In this document: piece after piece, positions 3,768 through 42,603 of the stretch | Layout of the letters: the number at the start of each line of letters is the position of its first letter | Position numbering within the stretch: position 1 is the first letter of the stretch | Assembly (NCBI GenBank): GCA_014238055.1 | Contig: JABABV010000001.1 | Location: 184,938 to 248,937, forward strand | Direction of reading: 5' to 3' | From: Mycoplasmatales bacterium | GTDB taxonomy: Bacteria; Bacillota_I; Bacilli_A; Mycoplasmatales; JABABV01 | DNA length: 64,000 nt | Notes under the pieces: generated by a model | Told to the model about the DNA's origin: nothing | Database searches by the model: none | What the model saw: the letters and a program-made list of their open reading frames with translations, nothing else | Program-made: the position numbers and the translations under genes

Positions 3768-3768
3768 C

Positions 3769-3861: not shown

Positions 3862-3867
3862 TTATAT

Positions 3868-3944: not shown

Positions 3945-3947
3945 TTA

Positions 3948-4023: not shown

Positions 4024-4024
4024 T

Positions 4025-4877: not shown

Positions 4878-4887
4878 AGGTATGTGC

Positions 4888-6240: not shown

Positions 6241-6243
6241 AAA

Positions 6244-19073: not shown

Positions 19074-21974
19074 TTATCCATATATCTTAAACATAAAGAA
19101 TACGAATATTATAAATAGAATTATACAAGCTGTTAAAGCATAAAATTTAAAATAATTAACTCGTTTAATAATTTTTTTATTATAAATACGATCTTTAATA
19201 TTTGCATAATTTAATTTATCATAGATTTTTTCATTGATAGAGATCAATATCAGAGTAGACATAGATACCACTAGCGGAACAATGTATGTTCAGAAGCGAT
19301 AGAACCCTGTAAACGTTTTGATATTGTCTTCAGTGGCATTCTTAAACGAACTGAAGTTAATTGCGTAAAATAGAGCATCTATTGTACCTGCTCCACCTGG
19401 AGTAGGCATAAATGTATTAGCTACGTTAACTACTTTTTGAGATGATAAGAAAGCAAAGTAACTAATATCACTATCTAAAGTACCCATTGATTTTTGAGCG
19501 AAGTAATAAACTGCTAAAAAAGATGGGGCCGCATTAACTATACATAAAAGAATCATCGTTTTTTTATCTGTTCAGATTATTTTAATACTTCTTCGAAGTT
19601 CGCTAGCCTCGTGTTCTAAACGAGCATATTCACGATCATAATCTTTAATATATCTAACTTTAACTCCTAGTTTTAAGAAGAAGCTAATTAAAAGTCGATG
19701 AATTTTTGTTGATAATCCAGCAATAAAAAATACTGCTGAAACTAAAATATCCATAAAAAATCCAATAATAACACAAGATAAAGCTCAATATCCTGCCGCT
19801 CCATTATGGAAAAAAGTTTGTTTTAAAATAACTAACCCAGCAGGTATTAAAATAATGGCAATAATAATTTTAACTACTTGATTTACGATCGTTTCAACTA
19901 ATAGAGCTGATATTAATTTATTAGTTTGAACTTTTTTTCTTCGTAAATATCAAATTTGTAAAATTTGTCCTCCTGTTGAAAAAGGAGTTATTCCAGAAAC
20001 TATTTTATCTAAAATTTGAGCAATAAAGGCATGACGGTATTTCAAACCAGTCTTAAATTTCTTTCCAACAATCCAGACCCCTAAAGCACTAAAAGGTGCT
20101 CAAGTTAAAAAGATAGTGAATAGAAATACCACAAAATAAACAGCATTTTGACTACTTAAATCTCTCGAACTATGATGTCAAATAGCGGTAAAAATATCTC
20201 ATGATTTACGACTGTCATTACTATAAAATCTATAAACTAATATTAATAAAACAGCCATTAACATAACGCTTCAGAAAAGTCATATCCCAATTTCTTTTTT
20301 AGAAATTTGGGTTTTTTTAGAAACGTTTGTTAATATTTTAATTTCTTTTTCAAATTTCCTAAATTTAATTATTGCATTAATTTTATTGTTAGCAATTGTA
20401 CAATAATAAATTTTTAATTTAGGTTCTGTACCTGAAGGTCTAACAGCGATTCAAGAACCATCTTCTAAATGGAATTTAATCATGTTAGTTTTTGGAAATC
20501 CAGAAACACCTTTTCTAAAATCTTCTGTTTTAAGAACTTTAATTCCTCCAATAGAAGAAATATCTTGTCTTAAAGTATGCATGAAGTCTTCAACTTCAGC
20601 TTTATTATTAATCATTATAGATGTAGTTTGTTCATAATAATAACCATACTTATTATAAATTTCTAACAAAACATCGTTTAACGTTTTGTTTTGTGATTTA
20701 TAATAACTAGCAGCATCAGCAATTAATAGAGCTGTTTGAAAACCATCTTTATCACGACATAAATCGGAATTTATTAACGAACCATAAGATTCTTCAAAAC
20801 CATAAAGAAAGTCTTCGTTTTTAGTATTTTCAATTAGATGACCGATTCATTTAAATCCTGTTAAAGTATCTTTTACTTTAACATTATATTCTTTAGCAAT
20901 AGCATCAACTAAAGTTGTTGAGACGATTGATTTAGCAATATATTTATTTTTTAAATCAGCTTTAGCTGTATTAGATAAAATATATTCTAATAAAATAGCA
21001 GCTGTTTGATTACCATTTAAAATTTTATATTGTTTATCAACTTTTAAAACAACACCGACACGATCAGCGTCAGGGTCAGTTGTAATTCCAATATCAAAGT
21101 TTTTTTTCTTTAAAAATTTTATAATTTTATCATAAGCAGTATTGTTTTCCGGATTAGGAGATTTAGTTCCGTTAAAATCAGGGTTTGGATCTCTTTGCTC
21201 GGGAACAGTAAAATATTGATAATTATTCTCTTCGAATAAACGTTCCATTATTTTTAAAGATGTTCCTTGTTGCGGGGAAAATACGATCGATGCTTTTTGA
21301 CTAAGTTGATTGTTAAATTGAATTTTATTAAGATCGGTAATATAATTATCGATTATTTTTTGCGGTATTGTTGATCATTTTTCTTGATCACTTAAAGCAA
21401 TATCAAAAAAATCAATTTTTTTAGAAATTAAACTTATTTCGTCAGTATCTTTTGGCAATAATTGACAACCATTATGATCGTAGACTTTAAAACCATTATA
21501 CTCTTTTGGATTATGTGATGCAGTGATCACAATTCCCGACGCTAAATTCATTTTTCTAATTACATAAGATAAAAGCGGTGTTGGTTGTAATTCGTTGTTT
21601 TCAAAAAGAAAAACTTTAAAACCGAGATCAATTAAAACTTTGGCACTAATCTCACTAAATTCATTCGACATATGACGATTGTCATGAGCGATAACGATTC
21701 CTTTAGTTAAGTTATTGGCATTTTGTTTTTTTAAAAATTGACCTAAACTTCATGCTGCTTTTCTAATAGTATAACTATTAAGACGTTTGTTACCAGGACC
21801 CATTAGTCCACGTATACCTGCTGTTCCAAACATTAATTCTTCACCAAAATAAGCATTAATTTTATTGTGCTTAATTTTAGTTAGTGCATTATGATTTTTA
21901 GCATCTAAAGATTTATTATTTAATCATCGTTTGTATTCTATTTCGTTTATAGTTAGTTCTTTATTTTTTTTCAT
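19074..21974 (-). CDS. In-frame fusion: phosphoglucomutase/phosphomannomutase (N, about 555 aa) + LPG_synthase_TM / UPF0104 flippase-like membrane domain (C, about 410 aa)
   Basis: N-terminal part: FGTAGIRG, TASHNP (catalytic Ser), DPDADR, RPSGTEPKLKIYY. C-terminal part: multiple TM helices and a PTPGGAG motif. All fragments lie in one frame. I translated 20453 down to 19752 codon by codon and found no TAA or TAG, only TGA. Confidence 0.7.
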
Positions 21975-21982: not shown

Positions 21983-23125
21983 CTATTTATAGCGTTTACG
22001 CGCCTCTTTACGCGCTTCTTTATTGTGACGATTATTAATTCGATCTTTATATTTAGTTGATAAACGATTGTAGTAACTATCTCATTCTTGACAAATAATG
22101 TCATGATCATATTTTTTAGCTATCGCTTGGCTATATCCTTTAGCAGCAGCATAGCTTTCTTTATTAGTCGCTAATTTATCGATTATTTTAGCAAAATCAG
22201 CATTGTTATTAGCTTTTAAATATTTTGTAAAATTAAATATTTCAGCATATTCAGGTAAATCTCTTAATAACATTGGCACATTTACATTAGCTGCTTCTAA
22301 AATTGACATTGGAAACAACTCGTTTAAAGCCGGCATAAAGAAAAGGTCAGAAACGTTTAAATAATCATTAACTTCTTCTGGACTTACGCGCCCTTTAAAA
22401 AAGACATTGTCAGGAGGATTAGAAACAAATTGTTCGATTTCTTTATGTCCATGACTCATTTTTTTAAAGGCGAACGAACCAAGTCAAATAAATTTATATT
22501 TTGGTAACTTTTTAGCTACTTCAATAAAATCTTTAACACCTTTTCTAGTTTGTAATTGACCCACAGAAACTACAATAAATTCATCTTTAAATAAATTATA
22601 TTTTTTACGTAGCTCTAATCTTTCTACATTAGAAACAGGTGAGAATCCGCTGCTATCTACTACATTAGGAATATAAGTTATTTTTGAACGATCAACACCG
22701 ATATCAACTAAATCATTAATGAACATAGGATTAACTACAACTAGTTCATCTACGTGAGTTAAAAAATAATTAGATCAACTAATAATTTTTTTTAAAAATA
22801 AACGATGGATTCAATTTTGAGGATCGTATGAATTATCTGTATGTGTGTGCGGAATAAAATGTACGTTAAAAATTGTTACTCCATGATATTTACCGCGACG
22901 CATATGTCATTTGTAACGTGGATCTGGTGTGTTCATATGAATAAAATCAGCATCAGATTTACGATGATTTGTAGTTTGATATTCACTAGCAAAAGGTTCT
23001 TTTTCAAAATGTTTTAAGAACTCTCTTCAAGCAGAACCTGGACCAGTAGCTTTAACTCTATGAGCACTTGACAATAAATTTATTGATAGATTTTTTTTAC
23101 CTATTAAAGATTTTTTAATCGACAT
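21983..23125 (-). CDS. GT4-family glycosyltransferase (380 aa)
   Basis: AAGGAG before ATG 23125. GT-B C-terminal domain with EX7E (ELFPMSILEAANVNVPML). The ORF track stop at 22082 is a TGA; the true TAG is at 21985-21983. Confidence 0.8.
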
Positions 23126-29433: not shown

Positions 29434-30534
29434 TTATTCTCAAACTATATTTTTCTCGTCGTTTTCGTTTCTTTTCGTGAATTTTGTAACCATAATAATT
29501 CCGATAACCATAACTGTAATTAGTAGTCAAAATCATCAATGTAAATTATAATCTGAATCGCCACCAAGACTTTTTAACAATCCTAATTTAGCAAATATAT
29601 ATTGTAATAAAGCTGTTGATATAATTAAACTATTATAAAATGCTGAGGCAATTCCAGAACCGACTACTCGCACTGAATTATAGAAAAATATTCTACCAAT
29701 AAACATTATTGCTCCAACGAAAAATATAGAGATTAAAAATTTTCAATTAGAAAAGAACTCGCCATATCAATTGAAAGCTTGTGAAATCGATACTGGTGTA
29801 AATAACGTTGCAATAACAATAACTATTGGAGCAGCGATTGCTCCTGATAAAACTTTTAAATTAACAATTGCACTAGTGTTTAATTTCGTAGTAGAATTAC
29901 GCACTGCAATATCGATCAAGATATTTTCTATACTTCAACATAAAGGCGCAATTGAAGCTAAGACAATACCAATAATTAACATATTCCTGTTTGTACTTGT
30001 AGCATCGCTATTAATAATAGCAACAGTCCCAATCGTTGCGGCTGAAGCAATTGTTAGTAAAACACCAATTCATCCTTTTCAATTAATATGGTCTTTAAAA
30101 ACAAGGACCGCCCCAATCATCGTAAAGATTGGCATTCAAGAACTAAAAGTTGAACCGTATGCTGGTGTCGTAAATAAAATTCCTAGCGTTAGAAACGTAT
30201 AGCCAAATGGCCCAGAAATAATTCCACCAATTATAATTAATAATCCTCAACGATTTTTTAATAAACTTGATATTTCAGAAAAATAAGTTTTTATTTTACC
30301 TCTAACCAAGGCAATTAAAATTGAAGTTATCGTATTGAAGAATTCTTTTAAAGCAACTAGAACGAATCCTCAAATAACAATATTATAATTATTATTATTT
30401 AAAGGTCATTTAATAGATCCTTTATTAAATGCTAAAACTGCAATCAATATTGGAAATAAACCATAAAATAAAGAACAACTCATCCCCGATATAATTCCTT
30501 CAGTTTTTTTATTAACTTTTAAATTTAAATTCAT
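29434..30534 (-). CDS. DMT-superfamily (EamA-like) transporter (366 aa)
   Basis: GGAG before ATG 30534. About ten hydrophobic segments in two halves. Open only in code 4. Family call by architecture only. Confidence 0.5.
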
Positions 30535-31182: not shown

Positions 31183-31211
31183 ATAATCAACTCCTAATTA
31201 TTTTATATTTT

Positions 31212-32219
31212 TCATTCTATAACTGTTTTAAATTCATTTTTAAGATCTTTGGAAAAAGCCTCGGAGACGTCTTTCAAAGATTCGGTAACAATGATTTCAT
31301 CTATTAAGTTTTTACTTAATTCACTGAATTCTTTATTTTTCATTAAATTAATAATAGCTTTGAAATCATCATAACCACTACGAGACCTACCTATAATAGT
31401 AATCCCTTTTTCTAATAAATCACGATATTTAAAATTAAAATCACTATCGCTGATTCCTAAAAGAATAATTGTACCTTCAGGAATCAATAATTTAATAGCT
31501 TCAATTACAATATTGTTTTGCTGACTTCCGCCAACACACTCAAAAACAAAATTATAATTATTATTATCTTTATCAGTTGGTTTAGTATTAAATTTATTTT
31601 CAATATGTTGAAAACGCTTTAACTTAGAATCATGTTTTCCAAATAACGAAATTTCTGCATCAGGTAATAAAAACTTAATAATCAAACTAGTTGAAAAAGC
31701 AATCGGCCCATCACCAATAATAGCAACTTTAGGTTTTTTGATTTTTTGAGCTTTTTCTAAAATAGCATTTATACCATGATGCGCCACTGATAAAGTTTCA
31801 CACATTACTAAACTTTCTCTATCGATATCATTAGCTTTAATTAATCGATTACTATCCATATCAATAAATTCTTGCATAAAACCATCAAATCCAGAACCTC
31901 TAAATTTACCTTGAACATAGTTTTCGGCAAAATCATTACATAAATAATCTGGCGTATTAGGTACCATAATAACTTGATCACCGATTTTAAATTTATTACT
32001 ACTATCAAAAACAACTTCTCCAATTGCTTCATGAATCAAAGCCATTGGTAACTTTTTGTTTAAAATTTCTTGATCTCGATTACCTAAAAAATAACGTTGA
32101 TCAGCTTTACAAATAGCTAATAATTTTGGTCTTACGATCACTTTATCATTTAATTTAATATCTCGATACGTTTCAATAAATTGGAATGGTTCGATTAATT
32201 GATATACTTTATTAATCAT
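31212..32219 (-). CDS. tarJ: Ribulose-5-phosphate reductase (ribitol-5-phosphate 2-dehydrogenase), TarJ
   Basis: MINKVYQLIEPFQFIE...ICKADQRYFLGNRDQEILNKKLPMALIHEAIGEVVFDS...MVPNTP...GFDGFMQEF closely tracks S. aureus TarJ as I remember it. The ATG at 32219 overlaps the tarI stop; two further in-frame ATGs lie upstream (32225, 32231). Confidence 0.8.
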   Translation of the reverse strand: MINKVYQLIEPFQFIETYRDIKLNDKVIVRPKLLAICKADQRYFLGNRDQEILNKKLPMALIHEAIGEVVFDSSNKFKIGDQVIMVPNTPDYLCNDFAENYVQGKFRGSGFDGFMQEFIDMDSNRLIKANDIDRESLVMCETLSVAHHGINAILEKAQKIKKPKVAIIGDGPIAFSTSLIIKFLLPDAEISLFGKHDSKLKRFQHIENKFNTKPTDKDNNNYNFVFECVGGSQQNNIVIEAIKLLIPEGTIILLGISDSDFNFKYRDLLEKGITIIGRSRSGYDDFKAIINLMKNKEFSELSKNLIDEIIVTESLKDVSEAFSKDLKNEFKTVIE

Positions 32220-32925
32220 CCTCATTACCAATTTCTACTATCGCTCGCGCTAATCTTAAATCGTAAGGAGTAGTTATTTTTATATTAGATTTTTTTCCAT
32301 AAATTAAATGAATTTTTTTACCAAAATGAGAAAACAATCCACAAGCATCAGTGAAATTATCGCCTTCTACTTTATTATATAATTTTTTGAATTCAGATGA
32401 ATTAAAACTTTGCGGTGTTACTCCTTGTAACATTTTTTTACGTTCAGGAATACTAGTAATTACTTTACCATCTTCACTAAAAACAATCGTATTGTCAGAA
32501 GTTACGACTGTATCTAATATTTCGTGTTTTGATATTAGATCAACATGTTTTTGAATTGTTTCATAAGATACAAAAGGTCTAACTGAATCATGAGTGATTA
32601 AATTAAAATCTTTTGTTTTTAATAATTTTTCTGAAAAATCAATTGAATTTAAAATTGTTTTATTTCTATTGATTCCTCCTTCACAAACAAAAATAGTTTT
32701 ATCTATTTTACCCGGGAAATTATTTTTTATTTCTTCAATAACATAGTTTTTTCATTTTTTATGACTTGCTATTACAATCGCATCAATATTTTTTACAAAT
32801 AAAAATCTTGAAACAGTATGAATGAAAATATCTTTATTGGCTATTTTTAAAAATTGTTTAGGTTTATCGATGTTTCCCATTCTATTTCCGACACCACCTG
32901 CTAATATGACAGCTATATTTTTCAT
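32212..32925 (-). CDS. tarI: D-ribitol-5-phosphate cytidylyltransferase (IspD/TarI family)
   Basis: AAGGAG before ATG 32925. MKNIAVILAGGVGNRMG...KPKQFL, THDSVRPF. Translationally coupled to tarJ. Confidence 0.8.
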
Positions 32926-32942: not shown

Positions 32943-34949
32943 TTAAATTAATTTTTCGACATATATATCTTTAATTTTCATGATTGGTTTTAACAAATTA
33001 GTTTGAGTGCTATAACTATTAAATTTCATTATTAATGTTATATTCCAACTTTTTAATTTATTCACTTCGTCTAAATCAAGATTATTATTTTTCATATCTT
33101 TAATAATTGGTTGCGCTTTTTTTCATGATCCGAATTTATTATTATTAGTTCATCACGCAGAATAAGAATTTAAAAAATAACCTTTATTTACAAAATTCTG
33201 CATTAAAAATAATTCTCTATCTGCAAGTAAAATCATATCATTATTAGTTACATAATTGTTTAATGAATTAAAATCTCGATTAAAATAAGTTTTTCCAGAA
33301 TTATTTGTGTTATTAATTAAAACCCCTTCACCTAAATTATATTTTATCGATGCGCATTTTGCATAAATTGATATTGAACTAGCTGAAAAAATTACCAAAG
33401 GAACGAAAGCAAGCGTTCCGTAATTAATTTTTTTATTAATTTGAATAAATTTAACATCTTTAAGACTCATCATAATTATAAAAATAGCGAAAAAATTACT
33501 AGATATAATATATATTCTATAAGAAGAATCAGATAATATTTGATAAAATATAATTCAAAAACAAGGATTATAAACAGTAAAAACTAATCAAGTATAATAA
33601 TGAAATTTTTTAGTTTTGATAGTTTGATATATTACTAACGTTCATAAAACTACAAATAAGATAGCTAAATCTATATTAAATAAACCTGCTTTTCCGTTTA
33701 GATATAAACTTAAATTTGATCAAGCTAATTTATCAATTAGAGTTTCAATTTTATAATTAGGGTATTTCTCATTAAAAATATTTCAATGATTATTAATTAC
33801 CATAAAAACTAAAGACATCAAAGATATTGATAAAATAGTTATAATTATTTGTTTGTTTGTGACTTTATTAATTATTTTATTTAAAAAATCCACTATTTTA
33901 GTTTTATATATTAGAATAATCATAATCGTTAATATTGATATTTCAACTAAAGTCATTATTATATTTGGAGTTGAAAACTTTATCATAGTCATAAATATAA
34001 ATAAAAAAACAATAATAGATAATAGTTCTTTGTTAATTTTTTTATTATAAACAACAATTAATATAACAAATAATAATTCAGGAAATATAACATAAGAAGA
34101 AACCACAGAATTAGCAATAGCAAATATGAGTAAATATAAATTACTAATTTTAGAATCTATTTTGTAAATAAAAATAATAAAAAATAATAATAAACTACCT
34201 AATGCAAAAGATAAATCTGTTCCTCTAACGCTTCATTTTAAAAAATAATTTTGCATAAAAGTTAAAACTATAGCTAAAAATATAAATATTAATATATTTC
34301 AATTTCATCTACTACTACCATAAATATAAATTAAATATATTAATATCATAGAAAATGTAAATATTAATATTGAGTTCATCATTAAAGTAGAATAGATTAA
34401 ACTTCCAGAAGCCATTTTGAAGACACTGATTATTAAATAATAACTTTCATTTAAATAATAAGAACTGACATCGTGATTATTTCACGAAAAACTCGTATTA
34501 ATATTAATGTGCTTAAATCAAGAATTAGATTTAACTAAATCTAAATAATAACGATTATCAAAATTAAAATTTTTAACTGGTTGAAAATTAAAAATAATTA
34601 AAATCAATAAAAATAAACTTCATATGATTAAATCTACTTTTACGTTATTTCAATTAAGAATTATTTTTTTATTAATTATTTTTATAATAAATAAAAACCA
34701 AGTAATAAAAATAAATAATGCCAAAATGATGAATCAAACAATAAAATCTAAAACGAATATAAATGGTAATAGATTAGCGATGAAAGATAAAAATAATAAA
34801 GTGATGAAAGCGGCGCAAAATCTGATTATTGATTTAGTAAACCTACTATCTTCTCCGTCTTTAGAAATCTTTATAATATTTATAGGAATTAAATAAAATA
34901 ATGGAATTTCTACTAATAATAATATTAAAAATATAATTATCGGTGTCAT
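32943..34949 (-). CDS. Large polytopic membrane protein (668 aa), candidate polymerase / GT-C-type transferase / ligase
   Basis: Three track fragments share one frame. More than 12 hydrophobic helices, then a roughly 150-aa hydrophilic C-terminal domain. The ATG overlaps the HAD stop (TAATG). No family motif recognised by eye. Confidence 0.6.
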
Positions 34950-35785
34950 TAATTATCATCTTCTTTTAATAAATTCTTATTAATTCAACTAGCAACCCCA
35001 TTATCTTTATGTCCAAGTGTGCTTTCTGAAGCAATTACTTTTAAAGTTTCACTAGCGTTTTTCATACTCACCGATACTCCCACTACATTAAACATGCTTT
35101 CATCATTCATAGAATCACCAATTGCAGCAGTTTGATCTAATTTAATATTTAATTTATCACAAAGAAATTTAACTCCATTACCTTTAGAAGTTTTTTTTCC
35201 AGTGATTTCAATAACTCAACCATTTCCAGATGTAGCAATTTCTAAATGCGGAAATTTAGCATCTAACTCTTTTTTCAATAGTTTAACAATTTTACGTTTA
35301 CGACCAGTAAACATAATTTTAAAATATGATTGGTCTTTAATTTTATCTAAAAAATATTCTTTATGTAAAATAGCATCCATTTTTGATCACTTAACATAAA
35401 GTTTAGTTAATAAATTAGTGCCATAAAACTCAAATGGTTCATCTACTTTAATAGAAAAATTATGATTAACAGCATATTTAATAATTTCATTAACATCTTT
35501 TTTCTCTATTTTTTTATTATAAAGACTTTTCTTTTTAGAGATATCTTCTATATGCGCACCATTAAAAGAAACGAAATAATTTCCAAAATTATTAACTCTT
35601 ATTTTTTCTTGAATCTTTCGACAACTATTAGTTCCTCTACCACTATTTACAATAACATAAATACCTTGTTCTTGCGCCGCTTTACAAGCTGCTAAATTTT
35701 CTGGACTAATATAATGTCTTTGATGACGTTTTCCGTTAACTAAAGTTCCATCTAAATCTAAAAAAATCGCTTTTATTTGATGCAT
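34949..35785 (-). CDS. HAD-IIB (Cof-type) phosphatase
   Basis: IKAIFLDLDGTL (DxD nucleophile), SGR, GDSMND motifs. Confidence 0.8.
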
Positions 35786-35787: not shown

Positions 35788-36783
35788 TTATTTTTCTCCA
35801 ATACTATTTTTATTTTGTTTTGGACTTACTTGTTTACATACTATCTTTATCAATCTTTTTCTTGGAACTAAAAACGTTATAAGACTAATAAATCATGGTT
35901 TACAACTCATAATTAAAAAACGATTCTTAAAAACTTTATTAATTATTTTTTTATTATATTTTGATTTAATGTATTGCTTTAATGTTTTATAACTATCATT
36001 TCTTAATTTACGATCACTAATTAATTTAATATCGATTAATTTAGGACACACAAATCTAAATAATAATATTTGAAATTGTTCTTCAGTAGTGATGTTTTCC
36101 AAAAATTTATTTACAGTAATAGCTTCTAATTGTTGGCCTTTAAAAGTTCTACTGACACTACCTTCGTTTATATTCGTTAAAATAAAAGGTTCATCTATAT
36201 ATAATATTTTAATATTATCTTGACAAATCTGCGTCAAAATCGCAACATCTTCATCATAACTAACATTTAAATCAGCTGTTATTTTTTTTGATAACGCTTT
36301 TTTAAAAATACAATTAACCATTGATAATGAATTTTTAAGTAAAAAGTTATAATCGATTTCAAAACTATTTTTGCTTGATTTATTTTTTATTTTTTTGTTA
36401 CCAGAAAAAGAAAAGCTTCCCATGTCGTAATCGTTATCTATAATCAAACTTAAATTATTTGCTAAATTTTTAAAATAATAAGAATCATCAATATCTAAAA
36501 AACAAATATATTTTCCAGATGCTTGATTTATCCCAAAAAGACGAATATGATAAAGATCATTATTTAATATTTCTACTGCTTTTATTTTTGATAATATTTT
36601 ATTATCTTCAATAATTTCAATTGGAAATTTATAATCTTTATTTTTAACTAATAAAATTTCATATTCAAAATTAGAAAAATTTTTAGCTATTTCTAATATT
36701 AAATTTTTAATATTATCTTCAAATTTTACTTTATGATAAGGTAATACAAAACTAATAATTTGTTGTTTGTTGTTTGTATTCAT
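35788..36783 (-). CDS. GT2-family glycosyltransferase (331 aa)
   Basis: ISFVLPYHK... N-terminus and GKYICFLDIDD (DxD). The track stop at 35893 is a TGA; the true TAA is at 35790-35788, 2 nt before the HAD ATG. Confidence 0.75.
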
Positions 36784-36870
36784 AATACCTGCTTTCGTCT
36801 ATAAAAATATAAAACAATTTTATATATATAATACCATAATTAATAAATTAAACCAATTTTTACAAAATAA

Positions 36871-36890
36871 AAAGCAGAATATTCTGCTTT
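36871..36890 (-). terminator. Intrinsic terminator after trxA
   Basis: Perfect palindrome AAAGCAGAAT/ATTCTGCTTT followed on the minus strand by a T-rich run. Confidence 0.65.
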
Positions 36891-36901
36891 TATATTTATA
36901 G

Positions 36902-37213
36902 TTATTTATGATTATTAATTATATCTCTAATTGCTGGTTCTGGTCTAAATCCTGAAAAACGTTCAACTTCTTTTCCGTTTTTTAAGATAACCATAGTAGG
37001 CACAGATTTAATATCATATTCTTGTGCATATTCTTGGTCTTGATCAACATCGATTTTAATTATTTTAGCTCCTAAATTTGTATCAGTTGCTAATTTATCT
37101 AAAATTGGTGCAATCATTTTACAAGGTCCACATCAAGTTGCAAAGAAATCCACTAACACTAATTCTGTATCGTTAATAATTTCTAAAGCTTCTTTTTTAC
37201 TAATTGCTTTCAT
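36902..37213 (-). CDS. trxA: Thioredoxin
   Basis: MKAISKKEALEII...VDFFATWCGPCKMIAP. The active-site Trp is encoded by TGA. Confidence 0.9.
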
Positions 37214-37258: not shown

Positions 37259-38155
37259 TTACTTTTTAAAAGATAAATTTTGCTTTAATTCTTTTTTAAG
37301 TTTTAACATTTCGTTTTTATCATTAAAATAATCGAGATAAGATTTATCGTTCTTAAATAAAACAAAATGTTGGTTTTGATAAACTTTATTTTTTGGTATA
37401 TCCATTACGTCATCGCCATATTTATTAATTAAAAAATCGATACTATTTTTTAAAATTGGAAATTTTTGTTTTTCAAAAGTTTGTAAAATTATTTTTGATT
37501 CAATAATTTTTTTAGAAAAACTAACTTTTGGAAATTCTAGCGGATCAACTAGACATCCATAACGATAATTATCTTGTAATTTATTTCATTTAGAAAATCT
37601 ATGGTCCATTAATTTAGCAAATCATTTATTTGGCATTAAATTAAGAAATAATTTTAAACTAAAATATCCTGGTGCTATTAATAACTTTAATCAAAAATTA
37701 AAATTATGGAAACTCAATCGTTTAAAACGAACATATAATAATATATTTCAAAAACTATATAATTTTAAAAGTAATTTTCTTTTTTTGGTAGGGAACTTAT
37801 CGATTGGAAAAATATCGATAAACAAACCATGAGCTCACTTAGCTTTTTCACTTCAAGTTTCAATTACAGTCGTACTATTATCTTCTCATTTCATAAAGAA
37901 ATTGTCGTTTCCAGACATAAAAGCTTTTTTAATACAAAATGGTTTAGGTACGTCTTTAATCAATAGCTCTAATTTACGATAATTATCTCTATCCATACAA
38001 ATATCAATATCATCATCTCAAGGAACGAATCCTTGATGACGTAACGCTCCGATTAAACTACCATAACCTAAAAAATATTTAATATTATTTTCATTGCAAA
38101 ATTTATCAAATGCAATTAAATTTTTCTTTAATTCTTCATGTAATAATTTAATCAT
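37259..38155 (-). CDS. LicD-family phosphotransferase, paralogue 1 (298 aa)
   Basis: [28 protein letters not shown] is the LicD signature ([20 protein letters not shown]). Confidence 0.8.
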
Positions 38156-38166
38156 AAATCAATTCC

Positions 38167-39024
38167 TTATTTAGATAAAGTTATGCTTTCGCCGTTTTTC
38201 ATTTGGCAAATATAATTTTTTCCGATTGATTTAATTTCATCAAATTCTTCCGGAGCTAGTCCTGTTTTTTTAACAGCATAAATTAATGCTTTTGTTTCAG
38301 CATCTTGATTATATTTTTTATATTTCGGATCTAAACGTTTTAAATCATCTAAATTATCAACATCAAAAATAGAATTCTTTTTAACTAAATGACAATATAT
38401 TTTTATTTTTGGTTTTTCGCTTTTTAAATCATTGATAATGATATCTTCAAAATATCAATCGTTCATATCGATGCTTTTACGATATTTTTTTAATGATTTT
38501 CTAATTTTTTTATAAGTATCTTGACCAATAAAAGTAACTTCTCTTTGAGCGATTATATTAACGCCTCCAGATTTTTTAATTTTAGTAATCTGTTGTGTTT
38601 TTTGATTAACAGTTAGAGTTCATTCATTTGAAACACCATTAATTTTTTCACCATACATTAAAGTGTGTGGAAACTCTTGTTCAAAAATATTTTCTTTAAG
38701 AATAGTATCCCCGTTAACAATTAAAGCGTTTTTTAATTTATTTTTAGCGAAATATAACGTTCCAATATTATTGCAATGTCTTCAATTAAAATTATATTTT
38801 ATTTTTACTTTAAATTTTGATTTTAAATATTTAAATTTTTTATGTTTATAACCCGTTAAAATAGTTATTTTTTTAATGCCTTTTTCTTTAAGTTTTTTAA
38901 TAATATCTTCAATAATGATCGTTCCGTTTATATCTATTAATGGTTTTGCAGTTTCTTTTGTAACTGGTAGTAAACGCATACCTCGTCCAGCAGCTAATAT
39001 TAATGCTCTTTTAACTTTATACAT
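38167..39024 (-). CDS. LicC-like nucleotidyl (cytidylyl) transferase for a phospho-alcohol (285 aa)
   Basis: GGAG before ATG 39024. KRALILAAGRGMRLLPVTKETAKPLIDING, the sugar/phospho-alcohol nucleotidyltransferase N-terminus. The longer METIKNY... start in the track overlaps LicD2 and has no SD. Confidence 0.7.
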
Positions 39025-39028
39025 ATTA

Positions 39029-39805
39029 TTATGATTTCTCCTTCTTATTTTTAAAAAAATGATGTCCTCTACGATTTTTAAATGACGGTAATTCTTTATA
39101 GTCTCCAAAATAATTAATTAATATTTCATCATATTTATTATAAACGTAATATTCTCTATCTTCAAATTTTACTAGTTTAACTTTTGAAAATCATTCTCTG
39201 TCGAACATTTTAGATTGATGTTTTTTGAAAGCATAAGGATCAGAAGGGAAATAAAAATGAGTATAATTATCTTCTTTTTTAGATATTATATTTTCAATAT
39301 TATTAGCAATTTTCTTATAGAACATATTGCTAATAAATTTAAATTTATGATCACTTAAATTTCAGTAAAAAGCCATTTTTCTAAAATTTTTATTAACTTT
39401 TTTTAAACTTAAAGGTGCTGGTGAAATAACAAATATATCAACAAATATTGAAGTTTTAAAATTAAAATCATTTGTTTTTAAAAATATTTTATTAATTGCT
39501 TTATTCCATATTTTATTTTTATAATCAAAAATCAATAACTCTTTATTATATTCTTGATTAATAATATTTTTAAACTTTAAATAATTTTCCATCGTCATCA
39601 CAATATCTAAGTCATCATCTCAAGGAATAAACCCTTTATGACGAACTGCACCTAACATAGTTCCTCAAAATAATGAATATTCAATATTATGTTTAATACA
39701 AATATTATGAATTTTATCTGTAATGTTAAGTAATTTTTTTTGAACATTAATTAATTGATCAATTTCTTGACCATTCATATTAATATCTATATTTTTATAC
39801 AACAT
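39029..39805 (-). CDS. LicD-family phosphotransferase, paralogue 2 (258 aa)
   Basis: [28 protein letters not shown]. Confidence 0.8.
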
Positions 39806-39838
39806 TTAAAATTACCTCAAAATTCTATAATCGTGATT

Positions 39839-40720
39839 TTAATAATTATGTGTTCTTTTTCTTTCTTGTAAAGGTGGCAAAGTTTTGTAATCATAGTCTT
39901 CTATTTTGCATTTCCCTTTAGAATAAGCATGCTTTATTACTCAATCATAATCTTTCATAATTAATAATTTATAATTTTCAAATTTAATATCAATAACATC
40001 ATTAAACATTGATTTTTTAATTGTATTTAATTCATAATTAAATTTTAATTTATATGCAAACGGTGATGTTGGCATATAATACCTATCACTTTTGTATTTT
40101 TTATAAATGACTTTATTAACACTTCTAATAACGAACTTTATAGGCACCAAAAAGATAAATGGTTTTAAAAATCAAAATAACATTTTTTTCTTAAAACTGC
40201 CAATTTGTTTATTTACATTAGGAATCAATTTTAAAGATATAGTTCATAAAATTTTTGTTTTTAAAATATTATATCGAGCTTTAAAATTACTTTTAGGCGC
40301 TGTAACTACTACAACTATATCTACTGATGCATTAGTTTCTAGAGCGCAATTAGGATAATCATTATTTTTAAACCCTTTTTTTGAAAACTCTATTTTAACT
40401 AATGATCTAGCAAAAGTTTTACTATTTCAATCAAATATTTTTATTCTATTATCGTTTTTTAATTCTATTATTTTTTTTAATTTTAAATAATTTTCTAAAG
40501 TCATGGCAATATCCATATCGTCATCTCAAGGAATGAATCCTTGATGTCTAGCGGCACCAATCATACTACCTCAAATTAATGAATATTTAATATTATTTTC
40601 AATCATAATATCGTGTAGCATTTTAATAAATTCTAAAAAATTATTTTGTAATTTACTAAGTTCTTTAATTTCTGATTTAGAAATATTTACTTCTACACCT
40701 TTATATATATTACTTAACAT
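39839..40720 (-). CDS. LicD-family phosphotransferase, paralogue 3 (293 aa)
   Basis: [28 protein letters not shown]. The ATG lies 11 nt inside the end of the upstream PLP-enzyme gene. Confidence 0.8.
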
Positions 40721-41825
40721 TTTTCTCAGATTCTTTATTTAAAAAAGCTTTTATCCCAGAAATTAATATTTGATTTTGTTTGTGATTACCAATAGTTAAC
40801 CTTAAACCAATAGTTCTAACATTTCTAATACAAATAGAATAATTTACTAATAAGAACATTCTTAATTCATGATTTTCTCATTTTTCTTCTTTTGTTATTA
40901 AAAATATATAGTTACCTTGACTCTTAATAAAATTAAGATTTAATTTTGCAAATTCATTATATAAATATTCTTTTTCTGATATTGCTTTAGCTTTCATATC
41001 ACTATATCATTGACGATCATTTATAGCTGCGGTAGCGGCGTAAATTGCATATTTATTAGTAGATAATGGTTGGTATGTTTTTTTCATTGCATCTATTAAA
41101 TATTTTGAAGATAAAGCGTAACCTATACGAAATCCACTTAAACCGAAAAATTTTGAAAAAGTATGTAATATTAAAATATTATCATGCGTTTTTATTAGTT
41201 CGCTAGTTTTGTAAGGGAAATCGTTAGCATTAGCAAATTCGCAATATGCTTCATCAATAACTAATAAGATGTTTTTGGGAACTTTTTCAACAAAATCATA
41301 TAATTCTTTTTGATTTATATAAGTTCCTGTTGGCATATTTGGATTTGTTATATAAATAATTTTTGTATTACTATTAATAGCATTTAAAATACTATTTAAA
41401 TCATAATTATAATCTTCTAACTGTTTAATAATATTCACTTTATTTCCAGTAATTTTTGCAGTATTAGCATGTCTTCCATAAGTTAAATCAGTAACGATGA
41501 CTTCATCTTTTTCATCTAAAAAAACTCTTGGGATCAAATCTATTATTGCATCACTACCATTAGCAATCATGATATTATCATTATTAACATTTCAATATTT
41601 TGAAATTGAATCTAAAAGTTTTTTAGGTTTCATATCTGGATATATAAACCCCTTAATATCATTTTTAACTTTAATTCATTCATTAACTTTTGGAGAACAG
41701 CCAAATAAATTTTCATTATAATTCATTTTAATAATTCTTTTTATATTATGTTTTTTTTCTAATTCATTCATTGAAGGTATGTTGTGATCTGTTAAATTAA
41801 TAATTTCTTTTTTAATTTTTATCAT
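40710..41825 (-). CDS. Class I/II PLP-dependent enzyme, HisC / CobD (aminotransferase or phospho-amino-acid decarboxylase) family (371 aa)
   Basis: MNYNENLFGCSP (HisC/CobD N-terminal motif), ITNPNMPTG, and HTFSKFFGLSGFRIGYA with the PLP lysine. First gene of the LicD operon. Confidence 0.75.
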
Positions 41826-41930
41826 GTTGTTCCTTTCAAACTAAAATATAGCTTTATATTAAATAATAAATAACTAATTTTAATTATATCATAACTAAAT
41901 ATATAGATAAAATAATTAGCAAAATAAAAA

Positions 41931-41958
41931 AAAGCAATTTCTAAAAAGAAATTGCTTT
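41931..41958 (-). terminator. Second of two tandem terminators after the tRNA operon
   Basis: AAAGCAATTTCT / AGAAATTGCTTT, then a T-run on the minus strand. Confidence 0.6.
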
Positions 41959-41982
41959 CATGTACTCACTGCCATTAAAAAA

Positions 41983-42001
41983 AACACCGATAATAGGTGT
42001 T
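41983..42001 (-). terminator. First terminator after tRNA-Leu
   Basis: AACACC / GGTGTT hairpin followed on the minus strand by T8. Confidence 0.5.
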
Positions 42002-42028
42002 GGCCATTAAGGCTTTAAGTTAATGATT

Positions 42029-42113
42029 TGGTGCGCGAGAAGGGAATCGAACCCCCACGTCGTAAGACACTAGATCCTAAGTCTAGCGCGTCTGCCAGTT
42101 CCGCCACTCGCGC
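42029..42113 (-). tRNA. tRNA-Leu (UAG)
   Basis: Reverse complement GCGCGAG...CTCGCGC-A-CCA, anticodon loop CTTAGGA, long variable arm. Confidence 0.9.
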
Positions 42114-42116
42114 ATA

Positions 42117-42192
42117 TGGTGATCCCGAGAGGATTCGAACCTCCGACACCCTGATTAAAAGTCAGATGCTCTACCGGCTGAGCTACGGGACC
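42117..42192 (-). tRNA. tRNA-Lys (UUU)
   Basis: Reverse complement GGTCCCG...CGGGATC-A-CCA, anticodon loop CTTTTAA. Confidence 0.9.
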
Positions 42193-42196
42193 AATA

Positions 42197-42273
42197 TGGT
42201 GCTGGAGACAGGAATCGAACCTGCAACCTACTGATTACAAGTCAGTTGCACTGCCAGGTTGTGCTACTCCAGC
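42197..42273 (-). tRNA. tRNA-Thr (UGU)
   Basis: Reverse complement GCTGGAG...CTCCAGC-A-CCA, anticodon loop CTTGTAA. Confidence 0.9.
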
Positions 42274-42289
42274 GGATAAGTTTGTATAA

Positions 42290-42365
42290 TGGTGGATTAA
42301 TTCAGGATTTTCACCTGTTCTATTAATTCTTGTAACATTAATAGATCTTTAACAAGATAATCCAT
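42290..42365 (-). pseudogene. tRNA-sized, CCA-ending tRNA-like element (degenerate)
   Basis: Reverse complement GGATTAT...TTAATCC-A-CCA (6 of 7 acceptor pairs). No D-arm. Perfect 9-bp stem TCTATTAAT/ATTAATAGA with 9-nt loop GTTACAAGA. T-arm CAGG-TGAAAAT-CCTG lacks the TTC motif. Confidence 0.4.
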
Positions 42366-42366
42366 A

Positions 42367-42442
42367 TGGTGGGGCGTACAGGGCTCGAACCTGTGACCCC
42401 GTGCTTGTAAGGCACGTGCTCTCCCAACTGAGCTAACGCCCC
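42367..42442 (-). tRNA. tRNA-Val (UAC)
   Basis: Reverse complement GGGGCGT...ACGCCCC-A-CCA, anticodon loop CTTACAA. Confidence 0.9.
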
Positions 42443-42448
42443 ATATAA

Positions 42449-42524
42449 TGGTGACCCGTACGGGGTTTGAACCCGTGAATGCATGCGTGAAAGGCATGTG
42501 TGTTGACCGCTTCACCAACGGGCC
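42449..42524 (-). tRNA. tRNA-Glu (UUC)
   Basis: Reverse complement GGCCCGT...ACGGGTC-A-CCA, anticodon loop CTTTCAC. Confidence 0.9.
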
Positions 42525-42528
42525 ATAA

Positions 42529-42603
42529 TGGCGCCATGTATAGGATTTGAACCTATGACCAATCGGTTAACAGCCGATTGCTCTACCACTGAGCTAACAT
42601 GGC
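42529..42603 (-). tRNA. tRNA-Asn (GUU)
   Basis: Reverse complement GCCATGT...ACATGGC-G-CCA, anticodon loop CTGTTAA. Confidence 0.9.

What the first reader, a model, noticed from the sequence alone, without database searches (positions are those of the whole stretch)
37259..40720. Three tandem LicD paralogues bracketing a LicC-like cytidylyltransferase
Three ORFs of 258-298 aa each carry the intact LicD core (G..GA.RH.GF.PWDDD.D). They diverge strongly outside it, especially in the C-terminal halves. That pattern suggests three different acceptor and/or donor specificities rather than a recent duplication. Pneumococcus needs two LicD proteins (LicD1 and LicD2) to place two phosphocholines per teichoic-acid repeat. 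Three paralogues next to two different CDP-alcohol-forming enzymes (TarI and the LicC-like protein) imply a repeat unit or glycolipid with several phosphodiester-linked substituents.
Basis: partly seen in the sequence, partly recalled or inferred. Interest (0 to 1): 0.7.

Follow-up and report, generated by a model that had tools for sequence, protein, structure and literature searches.

The report
Three LicD transferases in mycoplasma operon
A wall-less, mycoplasma-type bacterium carries an operon with three old, intact LicD enzymes, which attach phosphate-linked head groups to surface sugars or lipids. The operon also holds a previously unremarked enzyme pair that probably makes a new amino-alcohol head group from scratch instead of scavenging choline.

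Summary

- **Genetic code.** The ORFs exist only under genetic code 4 (TGA=Trp).
- **The three LicDs.** They lie on the minus strand at 39839-40720, 39029-39805 and 37259-38155. All three keep every FKRP-defined catalytic residue. They are 24-35% identical overall (about 50% in the core, 23-30% in the C-terminal half).
- **Selection and lineages.** LicD-B and LicD-C are under purifying selection. Both belong to lineages conserved in two other Mollicute genomes. LicD-A is lineage-specific and is swapped as a cassette in a near-identical strain.
- **LicC.** The enzyme between them is a true LicC homologue (PDB 1JYK, E=5e-30).
No choline kinase was found in the window. LicC's tail looks like a remnant of a lost LicC-LicA fusion. 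A HisC-derived aminotransferase sits immediately upstream.
- **The aminotransferase-LicC pair.** It is adjacent in all 10 Mollicute loci examined, including M. marinum and M. todarodis, and in no non-Mollicute LicC locus fetched.
- **Best reading.** TarI/TarJ make CDP-ribitol. The aminotransferase plus LicC make a CDP-amino-alcohol, most likely CDP-serinol from dihydroxyacetone phosphate. The three LicDs place these groups on a glycolipid or glycopolymer.

It is a new variant of a known kind. All donor and acceptor assignments are inferred.

The parts
40710..41825 (-). HisC-derived PLP aminotransferase (371 aa), first gene of the operon; proposed source of the amino-alcohol phosphate used by LicC
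   Evidence: - Pfam Aminotran_1_2, E=1e-55.
- NCBIfam hisC 261.8 bits, just under the 276.55 cutoff.
- Best PDB matches are HisC structures, E=8e-46.
- It belongs to a distinct clade of 37 Mollicute-type proteins (416-625 bits against 288 bits or less for true HisC).
- The lid Tyr is lost, NNPTG has become NMPTG, and a new invariant Arg appears. The catalytic Lys and both phosphate-binding Arg residues are kept.
39839..40720 (-). LicD-A (293 aa): the lineage-specific, strain-variable LicD phosphotransferase
   Evidence: - Pfam LicD, E=8e-25; all catalytic motifs intact.
- AF2 model pLDDT 88; FKRP is the only significant PDB neighbour.
- It groups only with L005_1, at 34% identity and 65% bootstrap.
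39029..39805 (-). LicD-B (258 aa): conserved LicD lineage upstream of LicC; lacks the hydrophobic insert
   Evidence: - Pfam LicD, E=1e-30.
- FKRP alignment covers hG[GS], the DxDxD motif and VDI.
- Orthologues in L003, L004 and L005, clade bootstrap 99%.
- dN/dS 0.16 against L005; no hydrophobic 19-mer.
38167..39024 (-). LicC-type cytidylyltransferase (285 aa) with a roughly 50-aa C-terminal tail that looks like the linker of a lost LicC-LicA fusion
   Evidence: - PDB 1JYK LicC, E=5e-30 over residues 6-236.
- Orthologues at 73-99% identity in L003, L004 and L005.
- Tail residues 241-267 align with the linker before the kinase P-loop of a streptococcal LicC-LicA fusion.
- dN/dS 0.03.
37259..38155 (-). 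LicD-C (298 aa): conserved LicD lineage immediately downstream of LicC; best candidate user of the LicC product
   Evidence: - Pfam LicD, E=3e-34.
- C1 clade with L003_2, L004_2 and L005_3, bootstrap 100%.
- AF2 pLDDT 90.5; dN/dS 0.10; hydrophobic helical insert.
39822..41859 (.). Strain-variable cassette (aminotransferase plus LicD-A) between two breakpoints shared with strain L005
   Evidence: - blastn of L005 against the window gives flanks at 99% and 94.7% identity.
- Between the breakpoints, L005 has LicD-A' then AT, whereas the window has AT then LicD-A. The AT is 79% nt identical and the LicDs are 34% aa identical.
- dS rises from 0.04 to 0.79 along the locus.
36902..37213 (-). Thioredoxin, last gene of the first transcription unit; probably housekeeping
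   Evidence: Pfam Thioredoxin, E=1.5e-28. Its position is conserved in L003-L005.
36870..36891 (-). Terminator-like hairpin that ends the AT-LicD-LicC-LicD-Trx unit
   Evidence: 9-bp stem followed by a T-run, directly downstream of Trx.
35788..36783 (-). GT2-type glycosyltransferase (331 aa)
   Evidence: Pfam Glycos_transf_2, E=9e-7. Orthologues in L003 (two copies), L004 and L005.
34949..35785 (-). Cof-type HAD-IIB phosphatase (278 aa)
   Evidence: Pfam Hydrolase_3, E=5e-56. NCBIfam Cof-subfamily 172 bits, above the 137 cutoff. Syntenic in L003 and L004.
32943..34949 (-). 668-aa polytopic membrane protein (about 12-13 hydrophobic segments plus a C-terminal soluble domain); family unknown
   Evidence: - No Pfam or NCBIfam match, even at E of 10 or less.
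- Orthologues in L003 and L004 at 28-31% identity.
- Not detectably related to the large proteins of the M. marinum and M. todarodis loci.
32212..32925 (-). TarI, D-ribitol-5-phosphate cytidylyltransferase (237 aa)
   Evidence: NCBIfam NF001183 238 bits, above the 166 cutoff. Pfam IspD, E=3e-37.
31203..32231 (-). TarJ-like medium-chain alcohol dehydrogenase overlapping the TarI stop; presumed ribulose-5-P reductase
   Evidence: Pfam ADH_N, Glu_dehyd_C and ADH_zinc_N. It overlaps TarI. L003 and L004 have no orthologue and no remnant.
29434..30534 (-). EamA/DMT-family transporter (366 aa), conserved at the end of the locus; substrate unknown
   Evidence: Pfam EamA, E=5e-13. Identity of 64-68% in L003 and L004. 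No NCBIfam or PDB match, so it is not a close LicB relative.
41930..42603 (-). Upstream boundary: seven tRNA genes (42032-42603) followed by two terminator-like hairpins (41983-42001, 41930-41959)
   Evidence: Rfam tRNA hits; terminator scan.

Best explanation
This is a surface phospho-glycoconjugate operon of an uncultured, code-4 Mollicute.

**Shown**
- Three intact, anciently diverged LicD-family phosphotransferases with an FKRP-like nucleotidyltransferase fold.
- One true LicC-type cytidylyltransferase.
- A TarI/TarJ pair.
- A GT2 glycosyltransferase, a Cof-type phosphatase, a large membrane protein of unknown family and a DMT-family transporter.

**Inferred mechanism**
- Two CDP-activated alcohols are made in the cytoplasm.
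- TarJ and TarI make CDP-ribitol.
- The HisC-derived aminotransferase makes an amino-alcohol phosphate. The most likely reaction is transamination of dihydroxyacetone phosphate to serinol phosphate.
- The kinase-less LicC activates that product with CTP to a CDP-amino-alcohol.
- Each LicD then transfers one alcohol-phosphate onto a different hydroxyl of a membrane-bound acceptor. That acceptor is either a glycosyl-diacylglycerol, as for M. fermentans Mf1, or a lipid-linked glycan built by the GT2.
- The product carries several phosphodiester-linked head groups.
- LicD-C directly follows LicC and groups weakly with the sole LicD of the M. marinum and M. todarodis loci. It is the best candidate for the CDP-amino-alcohol transferase.
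- LicD-B is the second conserved transferase.
- LicD-A occupies a strain-variable slot that diversifies the surface structure.
For: **The LicDs**
- Catalytic residues are intact in all three.
- Models are confident, and FKRP is the only significant PDB neighbour.
- The two clades are deep and well supported, and the B and C1 lineages are orthologous across species.
- dN/dS is 0.03-0.20.

**LicC**
- It matches 1JYK at E=5e-30.

**The aminotransferase-LicC link**
- The pair is adjacent or overlapping in L003-L006, L009, L010 and L086-L088 at only 35-44% identity.
- It is absent from about 75 non-Mollicute LicC loci.
- The aminotransferase clade is separated from true HisC by a score gap of more than 125 bits.
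- The clade keeps the PLP residues and both phosphate-binding Arg residues. It has lost the imidazole-lid Tyr and gained an Arg in the imidazole pocket.

**Against a choline route**
- No choline kinase in the 64-kb window or the related loci.
- The LicC tail aligns with the linker of a LicC-LicA fusion.
- Asp105 of LicC is Asn here, and Asp192 is Glu, as in the primary-amine enzyme PntC.

**Precedents**
- Cj1437, described in PMC11800397 only as the DHAP transaminase of a capsule locus, converts DHAP to serinol-P. That it belongs to the HisC/CobD family is my recollection and was not tested here.
- Serinol bisphosphate occurs in the M. fermentans lipid MfGL-II.
- Mf1 accepts more than one CDP-alcohol.

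**Other support**
- TarI passes its curated cutoff.
- A DAG-glycosyltransferase-like GT4 lies in the same window.
- The operon layout is tight.
Against: - No donor or acceptor was tested. All specificities are inferred from context.
- Only 64 kb of the genome was seen, so a choline or ethanolamine kinase could lie elsewhere.
- LicC keeps the aromatic residues Trp135 and Tyr191 of the choline box.
- A streptococcal LicC-kinase fusion also has Glu at the Asp192 position, so the pocket argument is weak.
- A DMT-family transporter, the superfamily of the choline permease LicB, is conserved in the locus.
- M. fermentans, the one organism known to make a serinol-phosphate glycolipid, has no member of this aminotransferase clade among the hits.
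- The invariant Asn-to-Met change at the PLP O3' position has unknown consequences. It could mean a reaction other than transamination.
- TarJ is missing in L003 and L004, so the CDP-ribitol branch is not universal.
- The tree is neighbour-joining only. It contains no LicD of experimentally known donor other than streptococcal homologues assumed to be LicDs.
Confidence: 0.5

Rival explanations
1. This is a classical Lic-1-type phosphocholine pathway. Choline is imported, perhaps by the EamA transporter, and phosphorylated by a kinase encoded outside the window. LicC makes CDP-choline, and two or three LicDs add phosphocholine, with one perhaps adding ribitol phosphate, as in pneumococcal teichoic acid or M. 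fermentans GGPL-I. The aminotransferase would have an unrelated or accessory role.
For: - LicC aligns full-length with pneumococcal LicC and keeps Trp135 and Tyr191 of the aromatic box.
- The only NCBIfam hit for all three LicDs is the Mf1 cholinephosphotransferase model.
- An EamA/DMT transporter is syntenic.
- Only 64 kb of the genome was inspected.
Against: - No choline kinase in the window or in six related loci.
- The LicC tail looks like a fusion that has lost its kinase.
- The aminotransferase-LicC pair is conserved or overlapping in every Mollicute locus examined, which an unrelated enzyme would not explain.
- The Mf1 hits are far below cutoff (77-90 bits against 225).
- EamA has no detectable similarity to any PDB chain, solved LicB included.
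- Asp105 is Asn and Asp192 is Glu.
Confidence: 0.2
2. The aminotransferase-like enzyme is really a decarboxylase of the CobD/Cj1436 type. It converts O-phospho-L-serine to phosphoethanolamine (or phosphothreonine to aminopropanol phosphate). LicC then makes CDP-ethanolamine, and the LicDs add phosphoethanolamine.
For: - CobD threonine-phosphate decarboxylase is the fourth NCBIfam hit (175 bits).
- Cj1436 in a capsule locus decarboxylates L-serine phosphate to ethanolamine phosphate.
- The new invariant Arg and the Asn-to-Met change could reflect a carboxylate-bearing substrate and altered chemistry.
- Mf1 can transfer phosphoethanolamine from CDP-ethanolamine.
Against: - The protein scores much closer to HisC transaminases (262 bits) than to CobD (175 bits), and its best PDB hits are all HisC.
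- From general knowledge, Mollicutes have no obvious source of phosphoserine, whereas dihydroxyacetone phosphate is a glycolytic intermediate.
Confidence: 0.15
3. The three LicDs are redundant or decaying duplicates with no distinct roles: recent duplication, pseudo-enzymes or assembly artefact.
For: - The genome is AT-rich and fast-evolving.
- One copy elsewhere (L004_3) has lost the RH motif, and L005_1 lacks the C-terminal His.
- The L005 assembly has fold-back artefacts.
Against: - All three window copies have complete ORFs and all catalytic residues.
- Pairwise identity is 24-35% with deep, well-supported clades.
- dN/dS is 0.10-0.16 for B and C.
- Orthologues of B and C occur in other species.
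- The same sequences occur in independent NCBI and ENA assemblies.
Confidence: 0.03

Closest known systems
Pneumococcal teichoic-acid lic/tar system (TarI, TarJ, LicA, LicB, LicC, LicD1, LicD2)
   Same: - TarI/TarJ-type CDP-ribitol genes are present.
- A LicC-type cytidylyltransferase matches at E=5e-30.
- Several LicD transferases sit in one locus.
- CDP-alcohol donors feed NTase-fold phosphotransferases.
   Different: - No LicA kinase is detected, and there is no recognisable LicB.
- LicC is coupled to a HisC-derived aminotransferase.
- There are three LicDs rather than two, and the third is not orthologous between genomes.
- The organism has no cell wall, so the product cannot be a wall teichoic acid.
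Mycoplasma fermentans GGPL/MfGL-II pathway (Mf1 LicD-type cholinephosphotransferase acting on alpha-glucosyl-diacylglycerol)
   Same: - A Mollicute LicD acts on a membrane glycolipid.
- Mf1 is the only NCBIfam model the three LicDs hit.
- MfGL-II contains a 2-amino-1,3-propanediol (serinol) bisphosphate bridge, the head group proposed here.
- A DAG-glycosyltransferase-like GT4 lies in the window.
   Different: - The scores are far below the Mf1 equivalog cutoff (77-90 bits against 225).
- No M. fermentans protein falls in the aminotransferase clade.
- There are three LicDs plus a TarI/TarJ branch here, against a single assigned transferase in M. fermentans.
FKRP/FKTN with ISPD (mammalian tandem ribitol-phosphate transfer onto alpha-dystroglycan)
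   Same: - The fold and catalytic constellation are the same: hG[GS], Asp360/362/364 and Asp416.
- Two paralogous transferases act in sequence using CDP-ribitol made by an IspD-family enzyme.
   Different: - Sequence identity is about 11-12% and TM-score only about 0.44.
- There is no stem or zinc-finger domain.
- The acceptors are bacterial membrane glycoconjugates, not O-mannosyl glycans.
Campylobacter jejuni HS:2 capsule enzymes Cj1437 (DHAP to (S)-serinol phosphate), Cj1436 (L-serine phosphate to ethanolamine phosphate) and Cj1435 (HAD phosphatase)
   Same: - PLP enzymes in a surface-glycan locus make small amino-alcohol phosphates. That they belong to the HisC/CobD family is my recollection.
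- A HAD phosphatase is encoded nearby in both systems.
   Different: - In C. jejuni the amino-alcohol phosphate is joined by an ATP-dependent amide ligase to glucuronate and then dephosphorylated.
- Here the adjacent partner is a cytidylyltransferase, which implies phosphodiester transfer through a CDP intermediate.
- No direct sequence comparison with Cj1437 or Cj1436 could be made.
PntC phosphonate cytidylyltransferases (for example Treponema denticola Tde1415, a LicC-like domain fused to an aminotransferase)
   Same: - A LicC-family enzyme is physically coupled to an aminotransferase that makes its primary-amine substrate.
- PntC is the second-best PDB hit (6PD1, E=5e-10).
- Glu occupies the LicC Asp192 position.
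   Different: - The PntC partner is a class V aminotransferase and the substrate is a phosphonate made via PEP mutase.
- Here the partner is class I/II and HisC-like.
- The precomputed Pfam annotations of the related loci list no PEP mutase, and the partial Pfam scan of the window found none.

Membership tests
LicD family (PF04991; FKRP/FKTN-like NTase-fold phosphotransferases) | Significant full-length match to the family profile | tested here: met
   Pfam LicD at E=8e-25, 1e-30 and 3e-34, covering profile positions 1-227.
LicD family (PF04991; FKRP/FKTN-like NTase-fold phosphotransferases) | hG[GS] motif plus four essential acidic residues (FKRP Asp360, Asp362, Asp364, Asp416) | tested here: met
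   WGS / WGT / YGS, PWDDDxDI and VDI / IDI are present in A, B and C. Essentiality is taken from PMC6965139.
LicD family (PF04991; FKRP/FKTN-like NTase-fold phosphotransferases) | Nucleotidyltransferase fold like FKRP | tested here: met
   AF2 models have pLDDT 88 and 90.5. In Foldseek, 13 FKRP chains are the only hits at E of 1e-3 or less, with probability 1.0 and TMq 0.40-0.44.
LicD family (PF04991; FKRP/FKTN-like NTase-fold phosphotransferases) | Transfers an alcohol-phosphate from a CDP-alcohol to a glycan or glycolipid hydroxyl | not testable with these tools
   This needs enzyme assays with CDP-ribitol, CDP-choline, CDP-ethanolamine, CDP-glycerol and CDP-serinol.
Mf1 diacylglycerol-glycolipid cholinephosphotransferase (NCBIfam NF045866 equivalog) | Score at or above the curated equivalog cutoff (225 bits) | tested here: not met
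   Scores are 77.2, 88.8 and 90.3 bits. The three are related to Mf1 but are not its equivalogs.
LicC CTP:phospho-alcohol cytidylyltransferase | Full-length homology to a structurally characterised LicC, with the N-terminal G-x-G-x-R-L nucleotide-binding loop | tested here: met
   1JYK matches at E=5e-30 over residues 6-236. 'LAAGRGMRL' is conserved.
LicC CTP:phospho-alcohol cytidylyltransferase | Choline-specific pocket (small Asp at positions 105 and 192, plus the aromatic box) | tested here: inconclusive
   Asp105 is Asn104 and Asp192 is Glu193 here, while Trp135 and Tyr191 are kept. A kinase-fused streptococcal homologue also has Glu at that position.
Lic-1 phosphocholine pathway (LicA, LicB, LicC, LicD) | Choline kinase LicA encoded with or near LicC | tested here: not met
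   phmmer with two streptococcal kinase domains against the six-frame code-4 window and six related loci gave no real hit. The rest of the genome was not seen.
Lic-1 phosphocholine pathway (LicA, LicB, LicC, LicD) | LicB-type choline permease | tested here: inconclusive
   An EamA/DMT transporter is present. It matches no PDB chain and no NCBIfam model.
Histidinol-phosphate aminotransferase HisC (TIGR01141) | Score at or above the curated cutoff, plus conserved substrate residues (lid Tyr20, Asn157 of NNPTG, two phosphate-binding Arg) | tested here: not met
   - 261.8 bits against a cutoff of 276.55.
- The lid Tyr is absent in all 37 clade members, against Tyr in 80 of 82 true HisC.
- Asn157 is Met in 37 of 37, against Asn in 82 of 82.
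- The Arg322 and Arg335 equivalents are kept.
- The clade is separated from HisC by a gap of more than 125 bits.
TarI D-ribitol-5-phosphate cytidylyltransferase (NF001183) | Score at or above the curated cutoff | tested here: met
   238.1 bits against a cutoff of 166. It overlaps a TarJ-like MDR dehydrogenase.

The most novel reading that the evidence does not exclude
The HisC-derived aminotransferase and the kinase-less LicC together form a previously undescribed de novo route to a CDP-activated amino-alcohol (CDP-serinol). The route replaces choline scavenging.

With TarI/TarJ and a modular, strain-swappable set of LicD transferases, it would let wall-less Mollicutes build teichoic-acid-like glycolipids or polymers. 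These would be decorated with ribitol phosphate and serinol phosphate, and would vary between strains like serotypes.

It would also point to the kind of enzymes that install the long-unexplained serinol-phosphate bridge of mycoplasma phosphoglycolipids such as MfGL-II.
Probability: 0.3. Interest if true: 0.75.

Novelty: new variant of a known kind. Interest (0 to 1): 0.55.

Why it matters
- **Why LicD enzymes matter.** They decorate bacterial surfaces with small zwitterionic or polyol phosphates that control immune recognition. Very few have been characterised, and no bacterial LicD structure turned up in the PDB copy searched here.
- **What this locus offers.** One small genome holds three diverged LicDs, two of them orthologously conserved and one strain-variable, next to two donor-synthesis branches. 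That makes it a compact natural system for working out donor and acceptor specificity.
- **The aminotransferase-LicC module.** It is conserved across marine and host-associated Mollicutes, including the cultured M. marinum and M. todarodis. It is currently annotated as 'histidinol-phosphate transaminase' in organisms that do not make histidine.
- **If the module makes a CDP-amino-alcohol.** That would be a new nucleotide-activated donor. It would also give a testable route to amino-alcohol-phosphate head groups like the one in M. fermentans MfGL-II.
- **The cassette swap.** It suggests surface-antigen diversification in uncultured mycoplasmas.

Tried and rejected
- **Table-11 tools.** I worked around this with TGA-free ORFs and database copies.
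- **Naming the organism.** This failed. The listing of cluster members gave no names. The closest named relatives, from the aminotransferase only, are M. marinum and M. todarodis at about 43%.
- **M. fermentans orthology.** I considered that the locus is the M. fermentans GGPL-III pathway itself. I rejected this as an orthology claim because no M. fermentans protein is in the aminotransferase clade and the LicDs are far below the Mf1 cutoff. It is kept only as a chemical precedent.
- **Phosphonate (PntC-like) route.** Considered and set aside. The partner aminotransferase is class I/II rather than class V. No PEP mutase appears in the precomputed Pfam lists of the related loci or in the partial Pfam scan of the window.
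- **Cobamide (CobD/CobY) reading.** Rejected. LicC is a full-length LicC homologue and the context is LicD and glycosyltransferase genes.
- **Phase-variation tracts.** None in 29.4-42.75 kb.
- **668-aa membrane protein.** No family by Pfam or NCBIfam, even at E of 10 or less. No homology to the large proteins of the M. marinum and M. todarodis loci.
- **EamA as LicB.** No support.
- **TarJ in L003 and L004.** No remnant.
- **Donor pockets.** The models could not be compared at that level, because the tools return no coordinates.

Full report
**1. The observation**

- With the standard bacterial code the region 36.8-41.0 kb has almost no ORFs. GC content there is about 22%.
- Translating with code 4 (TGA=Trp) raises the ORF-covered length of the window from 9,239 to 22,169 aa. 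It also yields a tight minus-strand gene array. The window therefore comes from a Mollicute-type genome.
- The array in the finding is:
  - LicD-A, 39839-40720, 293 aa
  - LicD-B, 39029-39805, 258 aa
  - a nucleotidyltransferase, 38167-39024, 285 aa
  - LicD-C, 37259-38155, 298 aa
- These coordinates and lengths are exactly those of the finding.
- Pfam LicD matches all three nearly end to end, at E=8e-25 to 3e-34.
- A six-frame scan with my own profiles finds exactly three LicDs, one LicC and one aminotransferase in the 64 kb.
- The same proteins occur in independent NCBI and ENA assemblies.

**2. Are the three LicDs intact and old?**

*Catalytic residues*
- FKRP is the only solved relative.
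- Its hG[GS] motif and Asp360, Asp362, Asp364 and Asp416 are essential (PMC6965139).
- All of these are present in A, B and C, as WGS/WGT/YGS, PWDDDxDI and VDI/IDI.

*Structure*
- AlphaFold models of LicD-A and LicD-C are confident, with pLDDT 88 and 90.5.
- Foldseek returns FKRP chains as the only significant PDB neighbours, with probability 1.0 and TMq about 0.44.

*Divergence*
- Pairwise identity is 24-35%.
- Identity is 47-52% in the core and 23-30% in the C-terminal half.

*Phylogeny (neighbour-joining, 100 bootstraps)*
- An A/B clade and a C clade each have 100% support. They are 18-28% identical to each other.
- LicD-B has orthologues in L003, L004 and L005 (99%).
- LicD-C has orthologues directly after LicC in the same genomes (100%).
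- LicD-A groups only, and weakly, with one LicD of strain L005 (34% identity).
- L003 and L004 instead carry a second C-type copy.
- So two LicD lineages are conserved and the third slot is filled differently in different genomes.

*Selection and membrane association*
- Against strain L005, dN/dS is 0.10 for LicD-C and 0.16 for LicD-B.
- A- and C-type copies carry a hydrophobic helical insert around residues 160-200. B-type copies lack it. This hints at different membrane association.

**3. The enzyme between them**

- It is a genuine LicC. Pneumococcal LicC (1JYK) aligns over residues 6-236 at E=5e-30.
- It has an extra tail of about 50 aa, conserved in its 73%-identical orthologues.
- A streptococcal locus (L031) encodes HTH-LicC-choline-kinase fusions.
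- Tail residues 241-267 align without gaps to the fusion's linker, which leads into the kinase P-loop. The tail looks like what is left of a LicC-LicA fusion.
- No choline-kinase domain is detectable in the window or in six related loci.
- PMC6697681 identifies two amine-contacting positions in LicC. At these, Asp105 is Asn and Asp192 is Glu here, and Glu is also the PntC state.
- This pocket argument is weak. The aromatic residues are retained, and the kinase-fused streptococcal homologue also has Glu.

**4.

*The gene*
- The first gene of the operon (40710-41825) is a class I/II aminotransferase overlapping the LicD-A start by 11 nt.
- It is HisC-like (NCBIfam hisC 261.8 bits against a 276.55 cutoff; PDB HisC E=8e-46). 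From general knowledge, Mollicutes do not make histidine.

*A separate clade*
- A profile search shows a clean split. 37 Mollicute-type proteins score 416-625 bits, and true HisC proteins start at 288 bits.
- Compared with 82 true HisC and E. coli HisC, the clade keeps the PLP residues and both phosphate-binding Arg residues.
- The clade lacks the lid Tyr.
- It has Met in place of the universally conserved Asn of NNPTG (37 of 37).
- It has an invariant Arg in the imidazole pocket.

*Conserved pairing with LicC*
- The aminotransferase is next to, often overlapping, a LicC homologue in every Mollicute locus examined: L003-L006, L009, L010, and M. marinum and M. todarodis.
- In the window, L004 and L005, one or two LicD genes lie between the two.
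- The pair is found in none of about 75 non-Mollicute LicC loci.
- In M. marinum and M. todarodis the pair sits in clear glycopolymer loci, with a TagF-type transferase, LicD, GT1/GT2/GT4, Glf, and IspD plus a reductase.

*Likely chemistry*
- HisC acts on R-CH2-CO-CH2-O-phosphate. Dihydroxyacetone phosphate has the same skeleton.
- C. jejuni Cj1437 makes serinol phosphate from it in a capsule locus, and Cj1436 makes ethanolamine phosphate (PMC11800397).
- A serinol bisphosphate bridge exists in the M. fermentans lipid MfGL-II (PMC3403081).
- I therefore infer that this enzyme supplies LicC with an amino-alcohol phosphate. Serinol phosphate is the most likely product.
- 'CDP-serinol' does not occur in the searchable literature.

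**5. Wider locus**

- *Upstream:* seven tRNA genes and two terminator-like hairpins.
- *Unit 1:* AT, LicD-A, LicD-B, LicC, LicD-C and Trx, ending at a hairpin (36870-36891).
- *Unit 2:* GT2, Cof-type HAD phosphatase, a 668-aa polytopic membrane protein of unknown family, TarI (above its curated cutoff), TarJ-like dehydrogenase, an AhpC-like protein and an EamA transporter.
- *Synteny:* the order is conserved in L003 and L004, except that TarJ is missing there.
- *Possible acceptor supply:* a DAG-glycosyltransferase-like GT4 and a phosphoglucomutase-flippase-like fusion lie 14-20 kb away.

**6. Strain variation**

- L005 is the same species. LicC, LicD-C and Trx are 99-100% identical.
- Between two shared breakpoints (window about 41859 and 39822) it carries LicD-A' then AT, instead of AT then LicD-A.
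- Across that cassette the AT is 79% nt identical and the LicDs are 34% aa identical.
- Synonymous divergence rises from 0.04 (LicD-C) to 0.79 (AT) along the locus. This mosaic pattern is typical of recombination at surface-antigen loci.

**7. Verdict**

- The pneumococcal phosphocholine analogy probably does not hold. The more interesting feature is the Mollicute-specific aminotransferase-LicC module.
- All donor and acceptor assignments are inferences.
- The system is a new variant of the known LicC/LicD/TarIJ kind.

Noticed in passing
window 19074-21974 (-): A 966-aa fusion of a complete phosphoglucomutase/phosphomannomutase (domains I-III, aa 48-443) with an MprF-type LPG_synthase_TM flippase-like membrane domain (aa 604-903). 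It is an unusual architecture and might couple sugar-phosphate supply to lipid translocation.
   Followed up: no
window 21983-23125 (-): A GT4/GT1 glycosyltransferase. Its best NCBIfam matches are diacylglycerol glycosyltransferases: the IagA/BgsA LTA-anchor family at 147 bits and the processive DAG alpha-glucosyltransferase at 123 bits, both below cutoff. It is a candidate maker of the glycolipid acceptor.
   Followed up: partly
L005 1-2413 and 8558-10983: The metagenomic contig of the sister strain has fold-back inverted duplications at both ends. The same window segments match in both orientations, which is most likely an assembly artefact. The internal cassette difference does not depend on them.
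   Followed up: partly
L031 1372-3528, 6008-7783, 9782-11587: A Streptococcus locus carries two paralogous HTH-LicC-choline-kinase triple fusions, each followed by a cytosine/purine-type permease. It also has a Wzy_C (O-antigen ligase-like)-LicD fusion and a stand-alone LicD.
   Followed up: partly
L056 9989-11866; L075 3273-5141: Single ORFs of about 620 aa in a Thermoplasmata archaeon and a Chitinispirillaceae MAG contain the locus's LicC-type nucleotidyltransferase match and also hit the aminotransferase profiles. This suggests LicC-aminotransferase fusions outside Mollicutes. They are closer to HisC than to the Mollicute clade.
   Followed up: no
L003 19155-19371; L004 17871-18507: The two related genomes keep TarI but have no TarJ and no detectable remnant of it. 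Either ribitol-5-phosphate comes from elsewhere there, or their TarI uses another substrate.
   Followed up: partly
L004 11830-12765 (L004_3); L005 2430-3284 (L005_1): Two LicD copies in the relatives deviate at conserved positions. L004_3 has LLYK instead of the (A/G)xRH motif. L005_1 lacks the C-terminal His. They may have altered or lost activity.
   Followed up: no
window 3194-4097 (+) and 42032-42603 (-): There are two dense tRNA clusters, of eight and seven genes. The second lies directly upstream of the LicD operon, next to the breakpoint of the strain-variable cassette.
   Followed up: no
window 4882-8808 (+): Adjacent GH1 (452 aa) and GH38 alpha-mannosidase-like (854 aa) glycoside hydrolases, followed by a large PTS-like protein on the opposite strand. 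This looks like a host-glycan foraging module.
   Followed up: no
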